Sequence record: OZ035785.1
Source: Tequatrovirus BCH953P2
Length of the DNA: 64,000 bases
Reading direction: 5' to 3' (one strand)
Positions 36,831-49,065 of the stretch are shown here, piece after piece. The notes under the pieces were generated by a model that was given only the letters and a program-made list of their open reading frames with translations, did not search any database and was not told where the DNA came from. Position 1 is the first letter of the stretch, and each line of letters opens with the position of its first letter. The position numbers were made by a program, and so were the translations under genes.

Positions 36831-37412
36831 CTAACCAAGCTTTTTAGTTAATTCATTCCAATGTTTTCTACACAAAGAAACATAAATTTCATCACCAATA
36901 CAGATTTGATTACCTTCTTTAACTGGTGTTCCATCTTCCATTAATCGAGCTGTCATAATCGCTTTTTTACCGCAATGACAAACTGCCTTTAGTTCAATAA
37001 GTTTATCTGCAATCGCTAAAAGTTCTTTAGAACCTTCAAACAATTTTCCAGCGAAATCAGTCCTTAGCCCATAAGCCATAACAGGAACATTATATGTATC
37101 AACAATTCGACTTAATTGATGCACCTGTTCAGTTTTTAAAAACTGAGCTTCATCTACAAATACGCAATGAATATCTTTTTGTGCTTCAGCCCATTTATAG
37201 AACTCGAAAATATCCATATCATCTGTAATAATATTCGCTTCCTGCTTAATTCCAATGCGAGAAACTACTTCACAGACAGAATCGCGAGTATCAATAGCAG
37301 GCTTAAGAACTAATACACTCATTCCGCGTTCTTTATAATTATGTGCAGCAGTCAAAAGAGAAGCAGATTTTCCAGCATTCATTGCTGCATAAGTAAAAAT
37401 TAAACTCGCCAT
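36831..37412 (-). CDS. tk: thymidine kinase
   Basis: 193 aa; P-loop AAMNAGKS, zinc-binding cysteines. Confidence 0.93.
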   Translation of the reverse strand: MASLIFTYAAMNAGKSASLLTAAHNYKERGMSVLVLKPAIDTRDSVCEVVSRIGIKQEANIITDDMDIFEFYKWAEAQKDIHCVFVDEAQFLKTEQVHQLSRIVDTYNVPVMAYGLRTDFAGKLFEGSKELLAIADKLIELKAVCHCGKKAIMTARLMEDGTPVKEGNQICIGDEIYVSLCRKHWNELTKKLG

Positions 37413-37602: not shown

Positions 37603-37790
37603 AAGGAATTTATATAATTAATAAGTTCTTGTTCTTTATTATCGAATTCTTTAGAAAGTTCTTCGTACTCGTTTGCACTAAAAGGACCGCATTCATTACA
37701 AACTTTTTCCAATTCACTATTTTTATCCATAACTTCGTGGATAAGAGAAAAGAGTTTGTCTTTTTGTTCTTTGCTTAAACTCATAACCAT
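37599..37790 (-). CDS. small acidic helical protein (paralog family)
   Basis: 63 aa; MVMSLSKEQKDKLFSLIHEV. Confidence 0.45.
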   Translation of the reverse strand: MVMSLSKEQKDKLFSLIHEVMDKNSELEKVCNECGPFSANEYEELSKEFDNKEQELINYINSL

Positions 37791-38008
37791 GTCACCTTTA
37801 AGCAGTATTCTTCTACATGCTGTTTACGACCTTTCTTATCAATAAAGGTATATTCAACGAATGTTCCAATGTAGTCTTTATCTACATCATGTGGACTATT
37901 AATTGGACATTTAGTACGGCAAATGCGTTCCCATTGACGAATAATTACTGCTTTATTCTTTGGGTCATATGGATGTGGATAATGTATATTCATAATAACG
38001 GTTCCCAA
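37781..38008 (-). CDS. hypothetical protein
   Basis: 75 aa ORF. Confidence 0.45.
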   Translation of the reverse strand: MGTVIMNIHYPHPYDPKNKAVIIRQWERICRTKCPINSPHDVDKDYIGTFVEYTFIDKKGRKQHVEEYCLKVTWL

Positions 38009-38457
38009 TCAACAATCACAATTTCTAATTTAGAGGAATACGTATCTAAAATCCCCTCAATAATATCCCAGTTCCCTTTACCTATGCCTGCACCAATCCT
38101 AGGCATATAGATTGTAGGTTTAATTAGTTTATTTTCACCAAACTCATTTAATTCTAACATACAATTCATTAAAGCGGAATACTCAAAATTTGGCCCTGGT
38201 TGAAATTGAGTATAAAGATTAAAGCAATACGCTTTATGAGTCCTAAAGTATTTTTCATAGACTGAGTAAGAACCGAGTTTAGTTACATCACCCCATTCAG
38301 TCTGTGATTTATCAGCTTCCAAAATTTTAGGGAAAGCTTTAGTTAATTGACCTGCGACTCCAGCTTTCATCATGTGAAAACAATTACATCCATGCGCAAT
38401 ATTTTTACCTTCAGTGAAAAGGGCGACAATATCGCCCTTGATATATTTTACAATCAT
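37990..38457 (-). CDS. macro-domain-like protein (ADP-ribose binding/processing fold)
   Basis: 155 aa; N-terminal IKGDIVALFTEGKNIAHGCNCFHMMKAGVAGQL and C-terminal IYMPRIGAGIGKGNW resemble the two glycine-rich macro-domain motifs. Confidence 0.5.
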   Translation of the reverse strand: MIVKYIKGDIVALFTEGKNIAHGCNCFHMMKAGVAGQLTKAFPKILEADKSQTEWGDVTKLGSYSVYEKYFRTHKAYCFNLYTQFQPGPNFEYSALMNCMLELNEFGENKLIKPTIYMPRIGAGIGKGNWDIIEGILDTYSSKLEIVIVDWEPLL

Positions 38458-38801
38458 CTAGTACTCAATCCTCGATTATAAGAATCTACCAAACGGTCAA
38501 CCATTGAATGACAAGCGGCTTTATCTTTCTCCTCCGCAACTGAGCATTCTAAGGTATTCCACTTTTTAGCATATCGTTTTAATAATGTATCGTTTTTGTA
38601 TCTGCTTGATTTATCTCTTTCTCCGTCTTTATATGCATATATTAATTTCTGCGCAAATTCAGCTTGGCATGCTTTATTTTTCCCACAATAATCTGCCGCA
38701 GTGCGATTTACATATTCTCTAATTTCAGTATATGATGTATCTGCTGACGCAGAAGCAGAAAATGAAATTAATCCTATACATAAAACCAAAATTTTAGTCA
38801 T
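38454..38801 (-). CDS. secreted protein (T4 vs-gene position)
   Basis: 115 aa with N-terminal signal peptide. Confidence 0.4.
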   Translation of the reverse strand: MTKILVLCIGLISFSASASADTSYTEIREYVNRTAADYCGKNKACQAEFAQKLIYAYKDGERDKSSRYKNDTLLKRYAKKWNTLECSVAEEKDKAACHSMVDRLVDSYNRGLSTR

Positions 38802-39339
38802 TTACTATTTCCAAAAGTTTATTATTTTTAAGGTAATTAGCCTTTTCTAGGACTTCAGAAGCATATTTAGAACCAGCTTTAACATTCCATCCCGAATTAT
38901 AAGAGGATATTGCTTTTCTTATATCGCCCTTATGTATATTTAACCAATAAGAAAGTTCAATGTACGCCCAGGAAGCTGAATTGGATCGTTTATTCAACAT
39001 TCTTTTTATTTCAGCATCGGTCATATTATAACCAAGTTCCTTAACTCTCGCTCGCATAGTAGGCAAATAATTTTGGAACATTCCGTAGGCGTGATGCTTT
39101 GGTTTAGATTTTAAATTAACTCCGCCAGAGCTTTCTTGCCATAAAATGGCTGCCATTATATGGCCCAATCCGCTCTTGTGGATGTTTTTGTGTGTTTTAT
39201 ATTTTCCATCCTTAGAAAATTGTTCCCCGAATTGATATGCGTAGCGCATGTTATCGAGTTGGACATTACTGAAAGTATGCTCGGAGCTATGTGCCATCAT
39301 TGAAATGGCCAATAGACCAGCGAGTAGTGCTTTTCTCAT
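38794..39339 (-). CDS. secreted lytic-transglycosylase-like protein
   Basis: 181 aa; signal peptide; QESSGG, YGMFQ and SYNSGW motifs resemble the SLT domain. Confidence 0.55.
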   Translation of the reverse strand: MRKALLAGLLAISMMAHSSEHTFSNVQLDNMRYAYQFGEQFSKDGKYKTHKNIHKSGLGHIMAAILWQESSGGVNLKSKPKHHAYGMFQNYLPTMRARVKELGYNMTDAEIKRMLNKRSNSASWAYIELSYWLNIHKGDIRKAISSYNSGWNVKAGSKYASEVLEKANYLKNNKLLEIVND

Positions 39340-39346
39340 GCTTACC

Positions 39347-39808
39347 TCATTGAGTTTTAATTACTGCTTTAGAAGCCTTTCCTGGTAAACGACGACTGTT
39401 GATAATTGCCATCCTACATTGAAGCGACGGGTCTTTGAACTTCGCATTAGGTTTACAAACTGTAAATCCAAGCCAAAGATTTCCATCTGTGATTTCTAAA
39501 CGTCCAGGGCGATATTCAACCCCATCAATAAAATCCTCGTCAATGTCAGGACGCGGAGGCATACTCAGGAATTCATTAACTTCTAAAACATGGTCTTTTA
39601 TTTTGTGGAATAATTCAAAAACATATGTCTCATCAATCTCCCGTTGAATTGCACGATCAAGAAGATGCTGAGAATATTTTAGATGAAACGATGAGACCCC
39701 TGCTGCTTTTGATGCCTCACGAATCTCATTGTTAATTTGACGAAACTCCGACTCAAAGTGACGACGAAGCTTATTTCGACGGATAAAAACTTCTGTGTTG
39801 ATAGTCAT
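39347..39808 (-). CDS. regB: endoribonuclease RegB
   Basis: 153 aa; MTINTEVFIRRNKLRRHFESEF N-terminus. Confidence 0.85.
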   Translation of the reverse strand: MTINTEVFIRRNKLRRHFESEFRQINNEIREASKAAGVSSFHLKYSQHLLDRAIQREIDETYVFELFHKIKDHVLEVNEFLSMPPRPDIDEDFIDGVEYRPGRLEITDGNLWLGFTVCKPNAKFKDPSLQCRMAIINSRRLPGKASKAVIKTQ

Positions 39809-39835: not shown

Positions 39836-39865
39836 ATTATACCACAGTCAAGAGGAAAAGTAAAC
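39836..39865 (-). promoter_or_regulatory. T4-type early promoter for regB
   Basis: Minus strand GTTTAC, 18 nt, TATAAT. Confidence 0.6.
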
Positions 39866-48103: not shown

Positions 48104-48180
48104 TGGTCAGGGTGAAAGGATTCTAACCTTTAACCTGCGGTTTAGAGGACCGCTACTCTATACAATTGAGTTACACCCCG
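48104..48180 (-). tRNA. tRNA-like, anticodon UCU (Arg), non-canonical D and T loops
   Basis: Cloverleaf folds with 7 bp acceptor stem and encoded CCA; D loop lacks GG and T loop is UUAGAAU (no C56); anticodon loop CCUCUAA. Confidence 0.5.
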
Positions 48181-48306
48181 TAATTAGTTCACAGCAATAC
48201 CTACTCCAACAATCAAGATGTCTTCACACGAAATTAAGAGAAGTGTGATCAGTTCAACCCCTATAATCGCGTCAAGTAGATATTAATGTGACAACTGTCA
48301 CAAGTT

Positions 48307-48381
48307 TGGCGGACATGCATGGATTCGAACCATGGACCAATTGATTAACAGTCAACTGCTCTACCACTGAGCTACACATCC
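48307..48381 (-). tRNA. tRNA-Asn (anticodon GUU)
   Basis: Canonical cloverleaf, T loop TTCGAAT, CCA encoded. Confidence 0.65.
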
Positions 48382-48385
48382 AAAT

Positions 48386-48472
48386 TGGTGGGGAGTGGTG
48401 GAGTCGAACCACCCGAGTCGCAATGACAATGAATTTACAGTCCACCCCGCTACCCCTACCGGATAACTCCCC
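48386..48472 (-). tRNA. type II tRNA-like, anticodon GUA (Tyr)
   Basis: GGGGAGU/ACUCCCC acceptor stem, 3 bp D stem, long variable arm, T loop TTCGACT, CCA encoded; anticodon stem has two G-U pairs. Confidence 0.5.
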
Positions 48473-48492
48473 CCCCCCCCTAATTCTTAATT

Positions 48493-48567
48493 TGGTGGCC
48501 CTGGGTGGAATTGAACCACCATCTGGCGATTATGAGTCGCTTGCTTGAACCTTCCAGCTACAGGGCC
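48493..48567 (-). tRNA. tRNA-Ile (anticodon CAU)
   Basis: Canonical cloverleaf, CCA encoded; CAU would read Met unless modified, called Ile by analogy with T4. Confidence 0.8.
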
Positions 48568-48568
48568 T

Positions 48569-48644
48569 TGGTGCTGATTGACGGAATCGAACCGCCGACC
48601 TTCTCATTACAAGTGAGTTGCTCTACCTACTGAGCTAAATCAGC
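48569..48644 (-). tRNA. tRNA-Thr (anticodon UGU)
   Basis: GCTGATT/AATCAGC acceptor stem, CTTGTAA loop, CCA encoded. Confidence 0.85.
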
Positions 48645-48649
48645 AAAAC

Positions 48650-48739
48650 TGGCGGAGGCGATAGGATTTGAACCTATGAGTCGCCGGAGCGACTGCCGGT
48701 TTTCAAGACCGGTGCATTAAACCACTCTGCCACGCCTCC
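48650..48739 (-). tRNA. tRNA-Ser (anticodon UGA), type II
   Basis: 90 nt with long variable arm; matches recalled T4 tRNA-Ser. Confidence 0.9.
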
Positions 48740-48741
48740 AG

Positions 48742-48815
48742 TCTCCGCGGCAGGATTTGAACCTACGACATTCTGCTCCCAAAGCAGACGCTCTACCAAA
48801 CTGAGCTACACGGAG
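48742..48815 (-). tRNA. tRNA-Pro (anticodon UGG)
   Basis: CTTTGGG anticodon loop; no encoded CCA; 2 nt from tRNA-Ser. Confidence 0.85.
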
Positions 48816-48825
48816 TAAATTAAAT

Positions 48826-48899
<74 letters not shown>

Positions 48900-48904
48900 A
48901 AATT

Positions 48905-48991
48905 TGGTGCGAGAAGTGGGACTCGAACCCACAAGGAAATCATTCCGCAGCATTTTAAGTGCTGTGCCTTTACCAATTTGACCATTCTCGC
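48905..48991 (-). tRNA. tRNA-Leu (anticodon UAA), type II
   Basis: 87 nt, CTTAAAA loop, long variable arm, CCA encoded. Confidence 0.88.
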
Positions 48992-48992
48992 G

Positions 48993-49065
48993 CTGGGAAT
49001 AAAGGACTCGAACCTTTGCATCTAGCAGTCAAAGTGCTATGCCTTACCAACTTGGCTAATTCCCA
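48993..49065 (-). tRNA. tRNA-Gln (anticodon UUG)
   Basis: TGGGAAT/ATTCCCA acceptor stem, CTTTGAC loop; no encoded CCA; abuts tRNA-Leu. Confidence 0.88.

What the first reader, a model, noticed from the sequence alone, without database searches (positions are those of the whole stretch)
37990..38457. Macro-domain-like gene in the early region downstream of tk
The 155 aa product carries the two glycine-rich motifs of the macro (ADP-ribose binding/hydrolysing) fold. T-even phages inject and express ADP-ribosyltransferases, and hosts use ADP-ribosylating toxins such as DarT against phage DNA. A phage macrodomain could reverse self-inflicted or host-inflicted ADP-ribosylation, making it a candidate counter-defence factor.
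Basis: partly seen in the sequence, partly recalled or inferred. Interest (0 to 1): 0.5.

Follow-up and report, generated by a model that had tools for sequence, protein, structure and literature searches.

The report
T4 tk.4 (AdfM) macrodomain ortholog

Summary

The A1pp/macro match of tk.4 was reported in 2006. A November 2025 preprint found tk.4 as the only T4 gene needed against DarTG2. A clean knockout sensitised T4, and the gene was named adfM.

What I add:
- The catalytic lysine of DarG and TARG1 is an invariant glutamine (Q84) in the Tk.4 family, as in Streptomyces SCO6735 (Q85, essential) and BT1257.
- The PhiKZ protein also called AdfM is a lysine-type, DarG-like protein, so the two look like separate lineages.
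- This window carries a minority loop-1 allele (HMMKAG; T4 has HTMGSG), apparently brought in by a short recombination patch.

Hydrolysis by Tk.4 itself has not been shown.

The parts
37990..38457 (-). tk.4 / adfM ortholog: 155-aa stand-alone macrodomain protein
38350..38394 (-). Loop 1 and preceding strand: H22-G-C-N25-C-F-H-M-M-K31-A-G33-V-A35-G. First glycine-rich ADP-ribose-binding loop.
   Evidence: Translation. H22, G23 and N25 are 81-82 of 83, and G33 and A35 are 83/83, in family alignment A1. H22 and N25 align with SCO6735 H24 and N27.
38353..38376 (-). Codons 28-35: variable patch carrying the K31/A32 loop-1 allele (T4 has G31/S32)
   Evidence: 12 of the 21 nucleotide differences to T4 fall in these 24 nt. 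The K allele is in 46 phage records, including T6, AR1 and BF15. The G allele is in 167, including T4 and T2.
38206..38220 (-). N80-L-Y-T-Q84: strand end carrying the invariant Gln at the position of the catalytic Lys of TARG1 (K84) and DarG (K80)
   Evidence: Q84 is 83/83 in A1. It aligns with SCO6735 Q85, the BT1257 Gln and TARG1 K84. SCO6735 Q85A is inactive (PMC9411070).
38068..38103 (-). Loop 2: P119-R-I-G122-A-G124-I-G-K-G-N-W130. Second glycine-rich (diphosphate-binding) loop.
   Evidence: P119 and G122 are invariant and G124 is 82/83. G124 aligns with SCO6735 G128. There is no Asp at the TARG1 D125 position, which is G126 here.
38454..38457 (-). ATGA overlap: vs stop codon / tk.4 start codon (translational coupling)
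   Evidence: The mRNA-sense sequence reads ...ACTAGATGATTG.
37990..37993 (-). ATGA overlap: tk.4 stop codon / tk.3 start codon
   Evidence: The mRNA-sense sequence reads ...TTATTATGAATATA. tk.3 read from this ATG gives 70 aa, as in T4.
39836..39864 (-). Nearest strong sigma-70-like promoter match upstream of the cluster, just before regB: TTTACT-17-TATAAT with TG. Possible early promoter for the regB to tk transcript.
   Evidence: Consensus scan only. The number of such matches in the region is no higher than in shuffles, so this is a lead and not evidence.

Best explanation
The gene is the ortholog of phage T4 tk.4 (adfM). It encodes a stand-alone macrodomain of the TARG1/DarG/SCO6735 (ALC1-like) class.

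It is read on the minus strand within the regB to tk gene run. Its start and stop codons overlap those of vs and tk.3. An early time of expression is inferred, not shown.

Its most likely job is to act as an orphan antitoxin against host DarT2. DarT2 puts ADP-ribose on thymidines in single-stranded phage DNA and blocks replication. The macrodomain binds the ADP-ribose in the cleft formed by its two glycine-rich loops and cuts the thymidine-ribose bond, restoring replicable DNA.

The chemistry is probably the SCO6735 type. An essential glutamine (Q84), held by N25, positions the distal ribose for attack by an activated water. This differs from the lysine-based chemistry of DarG and TARG1.

Shown: gene identity, fold, class, and conserved residues (this work). 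Also shown: genetic requirement of T4 tk.4 against DarTG2 (preprint).

Inferred: that this allele does the same, that the protection is enzymatic, and the Gln/water mechanism.
For: - Identity: 97% identical to T4 Tk.4 with the same gene order.
- Genetics in T4: tk.4 was the only significant hit under DarTG2, and a clean deletion was sensitised.
- Sequence class: Pfam Macro is above cut-off. The 83-sequence family profile hits BT1257 at 2e-22, SCO6735 at 1e-18, TARG1 at 1e-17, Poa1p at 8e-17 and DarG at 7e-15 and 1e-13.
- Active site: Q84 is invariant and H22, N25 and G124 are nearly so. They align with SCO6735 Q85, H24, N27 and G128.
- Precedent: SCO6735 cleaves thymidine-linked ADP-ribose on DNA, protects against DarT, and is inactivated by Q85A.
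- Selection: pN/pS is 0.13.
- A different phage macrodomain, PhiKZ gp104, has been shown in vitro to remove DarT2 marks from DNA.
Against: - No hydrolase assay exists for Tk.4 from any phage. The preprint itself says only that enzymatic removal 'seems likely'.
- SCO6735 and DarG also inhibit DarT by binding, so protection could be partly or wholly non-enzymatic.
- This window's protein differs from T4 in the substrate-binding loop 1 (G31K, S32A, T29M) and has not been tested. K31 replaces a glycine found in 62 of 83 family members.
- The closest solved structure, BT1257, has no known function.
- The genetic evidence comes from one preprint, with one DarTG2 system, at 30 C in minimal medium.
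Confidence: 0.78

Rival explanations
1. Tk.4 protects against DarT2 mainly by binding and blocking the toxin (stoichiometric inhibition), not by hydrolysing ADP-ribosyl-DNA.
For: Catalytically dead SCO6735 (Q85A), DarG (K80A) and TARG1 (K84A) all inhibit DarT in vitro, and SCO6735 does so most strongly. The other known T-even factor AdfA and the ICP1 factor AdfB appear to act by binding the toxin.
Against: Tk.4 lacks the C-terminal DarT-binding domain of DarG. It matches only positions 2-145 or 2-146 of the 329-338-position DarG profiles. The active-site residues Q84, N25 and H22 and both Gly loops are invariant or nearly so across 83 diverse relatives. That is what is expected of an enzyme rather than a toxin-specific binder.
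Confidence: 0.1
2. Tk.4 is a small-molecule enzyme, as its database label 'phosphatase' implies. It would be an ADP-ribose-1''-phosphate phosphatase (Poa1p-like) or an O-acetyl-ADP-ribose deacetylase, or it would degrade ADP-ribose-derived immune signals.
Against: The database labels are domain-name transfers, not assays. Poa1p has Ser, not Gln, at the Q84 position, and its functionally tested S30 aligns with a variable Tk.4 position (M29 here). The only phenotype on record is DarTG2-specific. From general knowledge, T4's own RNA repair (Pnkp plus Rnl1) does not produce ADP-ribose-1''-phosphate.
Confidence: 0.07
3. Tk.4 erases the phage's own ADP-ribosylation marks (Alt, ModA, ModB on host proteins or RNA). 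This is the 'self-inflicted' branch of the first reader's idea.
For: T-even phages do encode these transferases (general knowledge). Arg-specific macrodomains exist, for example Legionella MavL (cited in PMC12879935).
Against: Tk.4 belongs to the TARG1/DarG/SCO6735 class, whose known substrates are Asp/Glu esters and thymidine-linked DNA. Alt and Mod modify arginine (general knowledge). The T4 screen reported tk.4 as a hit specifically in the presence of DarTG2. Wild-type T4, which carries tk.4, is still strongly restricted by the mRNA ADP-ribosyltransferase CmdT.
Confidence: 0.04

Closest known systems
Phage T4 Tk.4 = AdfM (anti-DarT factor Macrodomain), bioRxiv 10.1101/2025.11.20.689424
   Same: 150/155 residues are identical. 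The length is the same, the neighbours are the same (vs upstream, tk.3 downstream), and the start/stop overlaps are the same.
   Different: There are five substitutions. Three lie in loop 1: T29M, G31K and S32A. The window carries the T6/AR1/BF15-type K allele instead of the T4/T2 G allele. This allele has not been tested against DarTG2.
Streptomyces coelicolor SCO6735 (PDB 5E3B) and Bacteroides BT1257 (PDB 2FG1/2AFC)
   Different: Identity is only 19-29%. SCO6735 K34, which is important for the DNA substrate, aligns with A32 here (S32 in T4). The longer Lys-rich mobile loop after the Gln is shorter in Tk.4. These are cellular proteins, not phage proteins. BT1257 has no known function.
DarG antitoxin of DarTG2 (T. 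aquaticus 5M31/5M3E, M. tuberculosis 5M3I)
   Different: Catalytic K80 is Gln here. There is no C-terminal DarT-binding domain, since the protein is 155 aa against profiles of about 330 positions. NCBIfam DarG scores 26.7 bits against a cut-off of 250. The gene is not next to a darT gene.
PhiKZ gp104, also named AdfM (Cell Rep 2026, PMC13309987)
   Same: It is a stand-alone phage macrodomain that counters DarTG2, and its hydrolysis of DarT2-modified DNA has been shown in vitro.
   Different: It appears to be a different lineage. It is 20% identical (BLASTP E 0.011). It is lysine-type (FPTKDNW) and matches Mtb DarG at 9e-25 and PADLOC DarG at 133 bits. Tk.4 scores 31.5 bits on the same PADLOC model.
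Human TARG1/OARD1 (PDB 4J5R)
   Same: It is the best Foldseek hit (7.6e-10). It has the same class and size, and it also cleaves dT-ADP-ribose.
   Different: The TARG1 catalytic dyad K84/D125 is Q84/G126 here.

Membership tests
Macro domain superfamily (Pfam PF01661) | Sequence match above the curated gathering score | tested here: met
   26 bits against a cut-off of 22, E 9.7e-6, profile positions 2-113 of 118.
Macro domain superfamily (Pfam PF01661) | Three-layer alpha/beta/alpha macro fold | tested here: met
Macro domain superfamily (Pfam PF01661) | Two glycine-rich loops lining the ADP-ribose cleft | tested here: met
   MKAGVAG (residues 30-36) and PRIGAGIGKGNW (119-130). G33, A35, P119 and G122 are invariant in 83 relatives.
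Macro domain superfamily (Pfam PF01661) | Binds ADP-ribose | not testable with these tools
   Needs ITC, thermal shift or a co-crystal structure.
T4 Tk.4 / AdfM orthologous group | High identity to T4 Tk.4 over the full length | tested here: met
   150/155 identical with no gaps.
T4 Tk.4 / AdfM orthologous group | Conserved position between vs and tk.3 in the regB to tk cluster | tested here: met
   Pfam matches identify regB (REGB_T4), vs.1 (SLT), tk.3 (DUF7202) and tk, and vs, tk.2 and tk.1 are assigned by their position and order against the T4 record NC_000866.
T4 Tk.4 / AdfM orthologous group | Required for growth on a DarTG2 host | not testable with these tools
   Shown for T4 only. This loop-1 allele is untested.
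ALC1-like / TARG1-like macro class | Closest sequence and structure relatives are TARG1, DarG, SCO6735 and Poa1p rather than MacroD, viral nsP3 or PARG | tested here: met
DarG antitoxin (NCBIfam NF048014, PADLOC DarG) | Catalytic lysine (K80 in T. aquaticus DarG) | tested here: not met
   It is replaced by Gln84, which is invariant in 83 relatives.
DarG antitoxin (NCBIfam NF048014, PADLOC DarG) | C-terminal DarT-binding domain; full-length match to the equivalog model | tested here: not met
   26.7 bits against a cut-off of 250. Only profile positions 2-146 of 338 are matched. PADLOC DarG gives 31.5 bits over positions 2-145 of 329.
DarG antitoxin (NCBIfam NF048014, PADLOC DarG) | Encoded next to a darT toxin gene | tested here: not met
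   The neighbours are vs and tk.3, in a phage genome.
SCO6735-type (Gln-type) thymidine-ADP-ribose DNA hydrolases | Gln at the catalytic-Lys position, with a supporting Asn and His in the first strand and loop | tested here: met
   Q84, N25 and H22 align with SCO6735 Q85, N27 and H24. Their roles come from mutagenesis in PMC9411070.
SCO6735-type (Gln-type) thymidine-ADP-ribose DNA hydrolases | Loop-1 lysine (SCO6735 K34) and the Lys-rich mobile loop that hold the DNA | tested here: not met
   The K34 position is A32 here and S32 in T4. A Lys sits one residue earlier (K31) in this allele only. The mobile loop is shorter.
SCO6735-type (Gln-type) thymidine-ADP-ribose DNA hydrolases | Hydrolyses dT-ADP-ribose on single-stranded DNA | not testable with these tools
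   Needs a gel-shift or AMP-Glo assay on DarT2-modified or synthetic TCT(ADPr)C oligonucleotides (substrates described in PMC12879935).
Poa1p-type ADP-ribose-1''-phosphate phosphatase | Poa1p active-site residues H23, S30 and F152 | tested here: inconclusive
   H23 aligns with the conserved H22. S30 aligns with the variable position 29 (M here, T in T4). The F152 equivalent was not resolved.

The most novel reading that the evidence does not exclude
T-even AdfM (Tk.4) may not be a captured DarG. It may instead belong to a separate, largely phage-borne, glutamine-type branch related to SCO6735 and BT1257. That branch would cleave thymidine-linked ADP-ribose by a lysine-independent, water-activating mechanism. 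On this reading phages recruited anti-DarT2 macrodomains at least twice: Gln-type in T4-like phages and Lys-type in chimalliviruses. The two loop-1 alleles exchanged by a short recombination patch (G31/S32 against K31/A32) would then tune DNA-substrate binding or the range of DarT2 or other ADP-ribosyl marks that can be reversed.
Probability: 0.4. Interest if true: 0.35.

Novelty: already known. Interest (0 to 1): 0.15.

Why it matters
The macro/A1pp domain of tk.4 was noted in 2006, and the anti-DarTG2 role, with the name adfM, was reported in 2025. The finding therefore opens no new question.

The remaining value is modest and mechanistic.
- The T-even protein has Gln where DarG, TARG1 and PhiKZ AdfM have the catalytic Lys. 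Mechanistic statements transferred from DarG may therefore be wrong for it, and SCO6735 is the better model.
- Two natural loop-1 alleles circulate among close T4 relatives. They offer a ready-made test of whether that loop sets substrate range.

Tried and rejected
- **Cellular relatives linked to darT.** I looked at one homolog labelled as a Bacilli MAG. Its contig turned out to be a T4-like phage. I did not pursue bacterial contexts further and did not use the genome-collection scan.
- **Promoter and terminator scan of 36.5-41.5 kb.** The number of promoter-like sites (18) is no higher than in shuffles (19.2 +/- 5.1). The site before regB is only a lead.
- **Inverted repeat at 38419-38439.** As an mRNA hairpin it is not significant (z -1.67).
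- **Direct comparison with PhiKZ AdfM.** BLASTP is barely significant (E 0.011, 20% identity). A profile comparison confirms only distant homology (hhalign 96%). I therefore rejected treating the two AdfM proteins as one family.
- **'Phosphatase' label.** I rejected it as a functional call because it is a domain-name transfer.
- **Other T4 anti-DarT genes in the window.** adfN is gene 30.3. By my recollection of the T4 map, which I did not check here, gene 30.3 and adfA (gene 61.2) lie outside the stretch this window covers, so I did not search the window for them.

Full report
**1. What is at the coordinates**

A minus-strand ORF runs from ATG at 38457 to TGA at 37990 and encodes 155 aa.

The window is a Tequatrovirus genome. 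A 1.2-kb stretch around the ORF is 98.4-98.6% identical to phages vB_Eco_F26, BF15 and T6, and matches 657 phage records.

The gene order on the minus strand is regB (39347-39808), vs.1 (SLT domain, 38794-39339), vs (38454-38801), the target, tk.3 (DUF7202, 37781-37993), tk.2, tk.1 and tk (36831-37412). This is exactly the order in the T4 reference record.

The product is 150/155 identical to T4 Tk.4. The finding is therefore the tk.4 ortholog.

Because the cluster is read on the minus strand, the gene is upstream of tk in transcription. It is 'downstream' only in + coordinates.

The start codon overlaps the vs stop, and the stop codon overlaps the tk.3 start, each as ATGA. pN/pS against T4 is 0.13. 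This is an expressed, selected gene and not a chance ORF.

**2. Is it a macrodomain**

Yes, by three lines of evidence.

- Pfam Macro scores 26 bits against a cut-off of 22 and covers nearly the whole model.
- An 83-sequence family profile hits solved macrodomains: BT1257 at 2e-22, SCO6735 at 1e-18, TARG1 at 1e-17, Poa1p at 8e-17, and DarG of M. tuberculosis and T. aquaticus at 7e-15 and 1e-13.
- An AlphaFold2 model built on that alignment has pLDDT 95.8 and pTM 0.91.

The protein therefore belongs to the TARG1/DarG/SCO6735 (ALC1-like) class.

**3. What is already known**

- The A1pp/macro match of tk.4 orthologs was tabulated in 2006 (PMC1524935).
- The T4 reference record says 'contains A1pp phosphatase motif'.
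- Many GenBank records already call it 'macro domain protein'.
- T4 lacking adfA and adfN stays resistant to DarTG2, which led its authors to predict a further factor (PMC11825919).
- The HIDEN-SEQ preprint of November 2025 then found tk.4 as the single significant hit in a T4 transposon library grown on a DarTG2 host. It showed that a clean deletion is sensitised and named the gene adfM. It states only that enzymatic removal of ADP-ribose from DNA 'seems likely'.

**4. Mechanism, and what I add**

The profile alignments and a MAFFT alignment agree. They cover Tk.4 relatives, BT1257, SCO6735, TARG1, two DarG macrodomains and PhiKZ gp104.

The residue at the catalytic-lysine position (TARG1 K84, DarG K80) is glutamine in Tk.4 (Q84). 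It is invariant in all 83 relatives.

BT1257 and SCO6735 also have Gln there. TARG1, DarG and PhiKZ gp104 have Lys. The TARG1 partner D125 is G126 here.

For SCO6735, mutagenesis showed several things (PMC9411070):
- Q85A and Q85E abolish activity.
- N27 supports Q85.
- G128E reduces activity.
- The enzyme cleaves thymidine-linked ADP-ribose on DNA and protects Streptomyces from DarT.
- The authors proposed a water-activated mechanism.

Tk.4 H22, N25, Q84 and G124 align with SCO6735 H24, N27, Q85 and G128. SCO6735 is therefore the better mechanistic model for the T-even protein, not DarG.

Two SCO6735 features that hold DNA are not conserved. K34 aligns with A32 (S32 in T4), and the Lys-rich mobile loop is shorter.

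**5. Two proteins called AdfM**

PhiKZ gp104 was independently named AdfM and shown in vitro to remove DarT2 marks from DNA (PMC13309987).

Translated from the paper's construct, it matches M. tuberculosis DarG at 9e-25 and PADLOC DarG at 133 bits. It carries the DarG motif FPTK.

Tk.4 scores 31.5 bits on the same PADLOC model. It scores 26.7 bits on the NCBIfam DarG equivalog, whose cut-off is 250. It is 20% identical to gp104.

Both are stand-alone phage macrodomains against DarT2. They look like separate recruitments from different branches of the class. I did not build a tree, so this remains an inference from scores and the Gln/Lys split.

**6. The allele in this window**

Of the 21 nucleotide differences to T4, 12 fall in codons 28-35. 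Codon 31 differs at all three positions. This points to a short recombination patch rather than point mutation.

The patch changes loop 1 from HTMGSG to HMMKAG.

| Loop-1 allele | Phage records with the 44-nt patch | Examples |
|---|---|---|
| K allele | 46 | T6, AR1, BF15 |
| T4 (G) allele | 167 | T4, T2 |

Only BF15 shares the exact sequence found in the window.

Lys at position 31 also occurs in 8 of the 83 family representatives, some of them distant. It is therefore tolerated in nature. Its effect on substrate binding is unknown.

**7. Rivals**

- **Binding inhibition of DarT2.** This is possible, because dead SCO6735, DarG and TARG1 inhibit DarT. However, Tk.4 lacks DarG's toxin-binding domain, and its conserved residues are the catalytic ones.
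- **Small-molecule role (the 'phosphatase' label).** The label rests on domain naming. Poa1p is a close structural relative, but it lacks the Gln.
- **Erasing Alt/ModA/ModB marks.** This has no support. It cannot be dismissed on chemistry alone, since an Arg-specific macrodomain (MavL) exists.
- **CmdT marks.** Wild-type T4 is strongly restricted by the mRNA ADP-ribosyltransferase CmdT. Tk.4 evidently does not neutralise that mark.

**8. Verdict**

Interest is low.

The residual points are the Gln-type active site, the apparent double origin of phage 'AdfM' proteins, and the loop-1 allele patch. Hydrolysis by any Tk.4 protein remains to be shown.

Noticed in passing
window 38353-38376 (codons 28-35 of tk.4): 12 of the 21 nucleotide differences to T4 tk.4 are packed into 24 nt. 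This swaps the loop-1 allele HTMGSG for HMMKAG and looks like a short recombination patch. The K allele is in 46 phage records (T6, AR1, BF15) and the G allele in 167 (T4, T2).
   Followed up: partly
window 48104-49065, minus strand: There is a cluster of 10 tRNA genes: Arg, Asn, Tyr, Met(cat), Thr, Ser, Pro, Gly, Leu and Gln. From memory, T4 has 8, so Asn(gtt) and Tyr(gta) appear to be extra in this phage.
   Followed up: no
window 38419-38439, + strand: An 8-bp GC-rich inverted repeat followed by a T run lies antisense to tk.4 codons 7-13 and was flagged as terminator-like. As a hairpin in the tk.4 mRNA it is not significant (z -1.67). I did not examine whether it stops + strand (late) transcripts.
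   Followed up: partly
L002 1-10397 (GCA_051648945.1 contig JBOFGC010000414): A contig deposited as a 'Bacilli bacterium' MAG is a T4-like phage fragment. It carries Rnl1, a Dda-like helicase, PNKP, spanin, dCMP deaminase and DNA ligase. Its Tk.4 homolog sits two genes downstream of RNA ligase 1 and just before the helicase, not in the vs to tk context.
   Followed up: no
window 37781-37993, minus strand (tk.3): The mechanical ORF list starts tk.3 at a TTG at 38008. The ATG at 37993 overlaps the tk.4 stop and gives the 70-aa T4-length product (DUF7202, E 2e-38). Its function is unknown, and it is translationally coupled to tk.4.
   Followed up: partly
literature: T4 Tk.4 and PhiKZ gp104: Two groups gave the same name, AdfM, to proteins that are only 20% identical and differ at the catalytic position (Gln in T4, Lys in PhiKZ). 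This is a likely source of confusion when mechanisms are transferred by name.
   Followed up: yes
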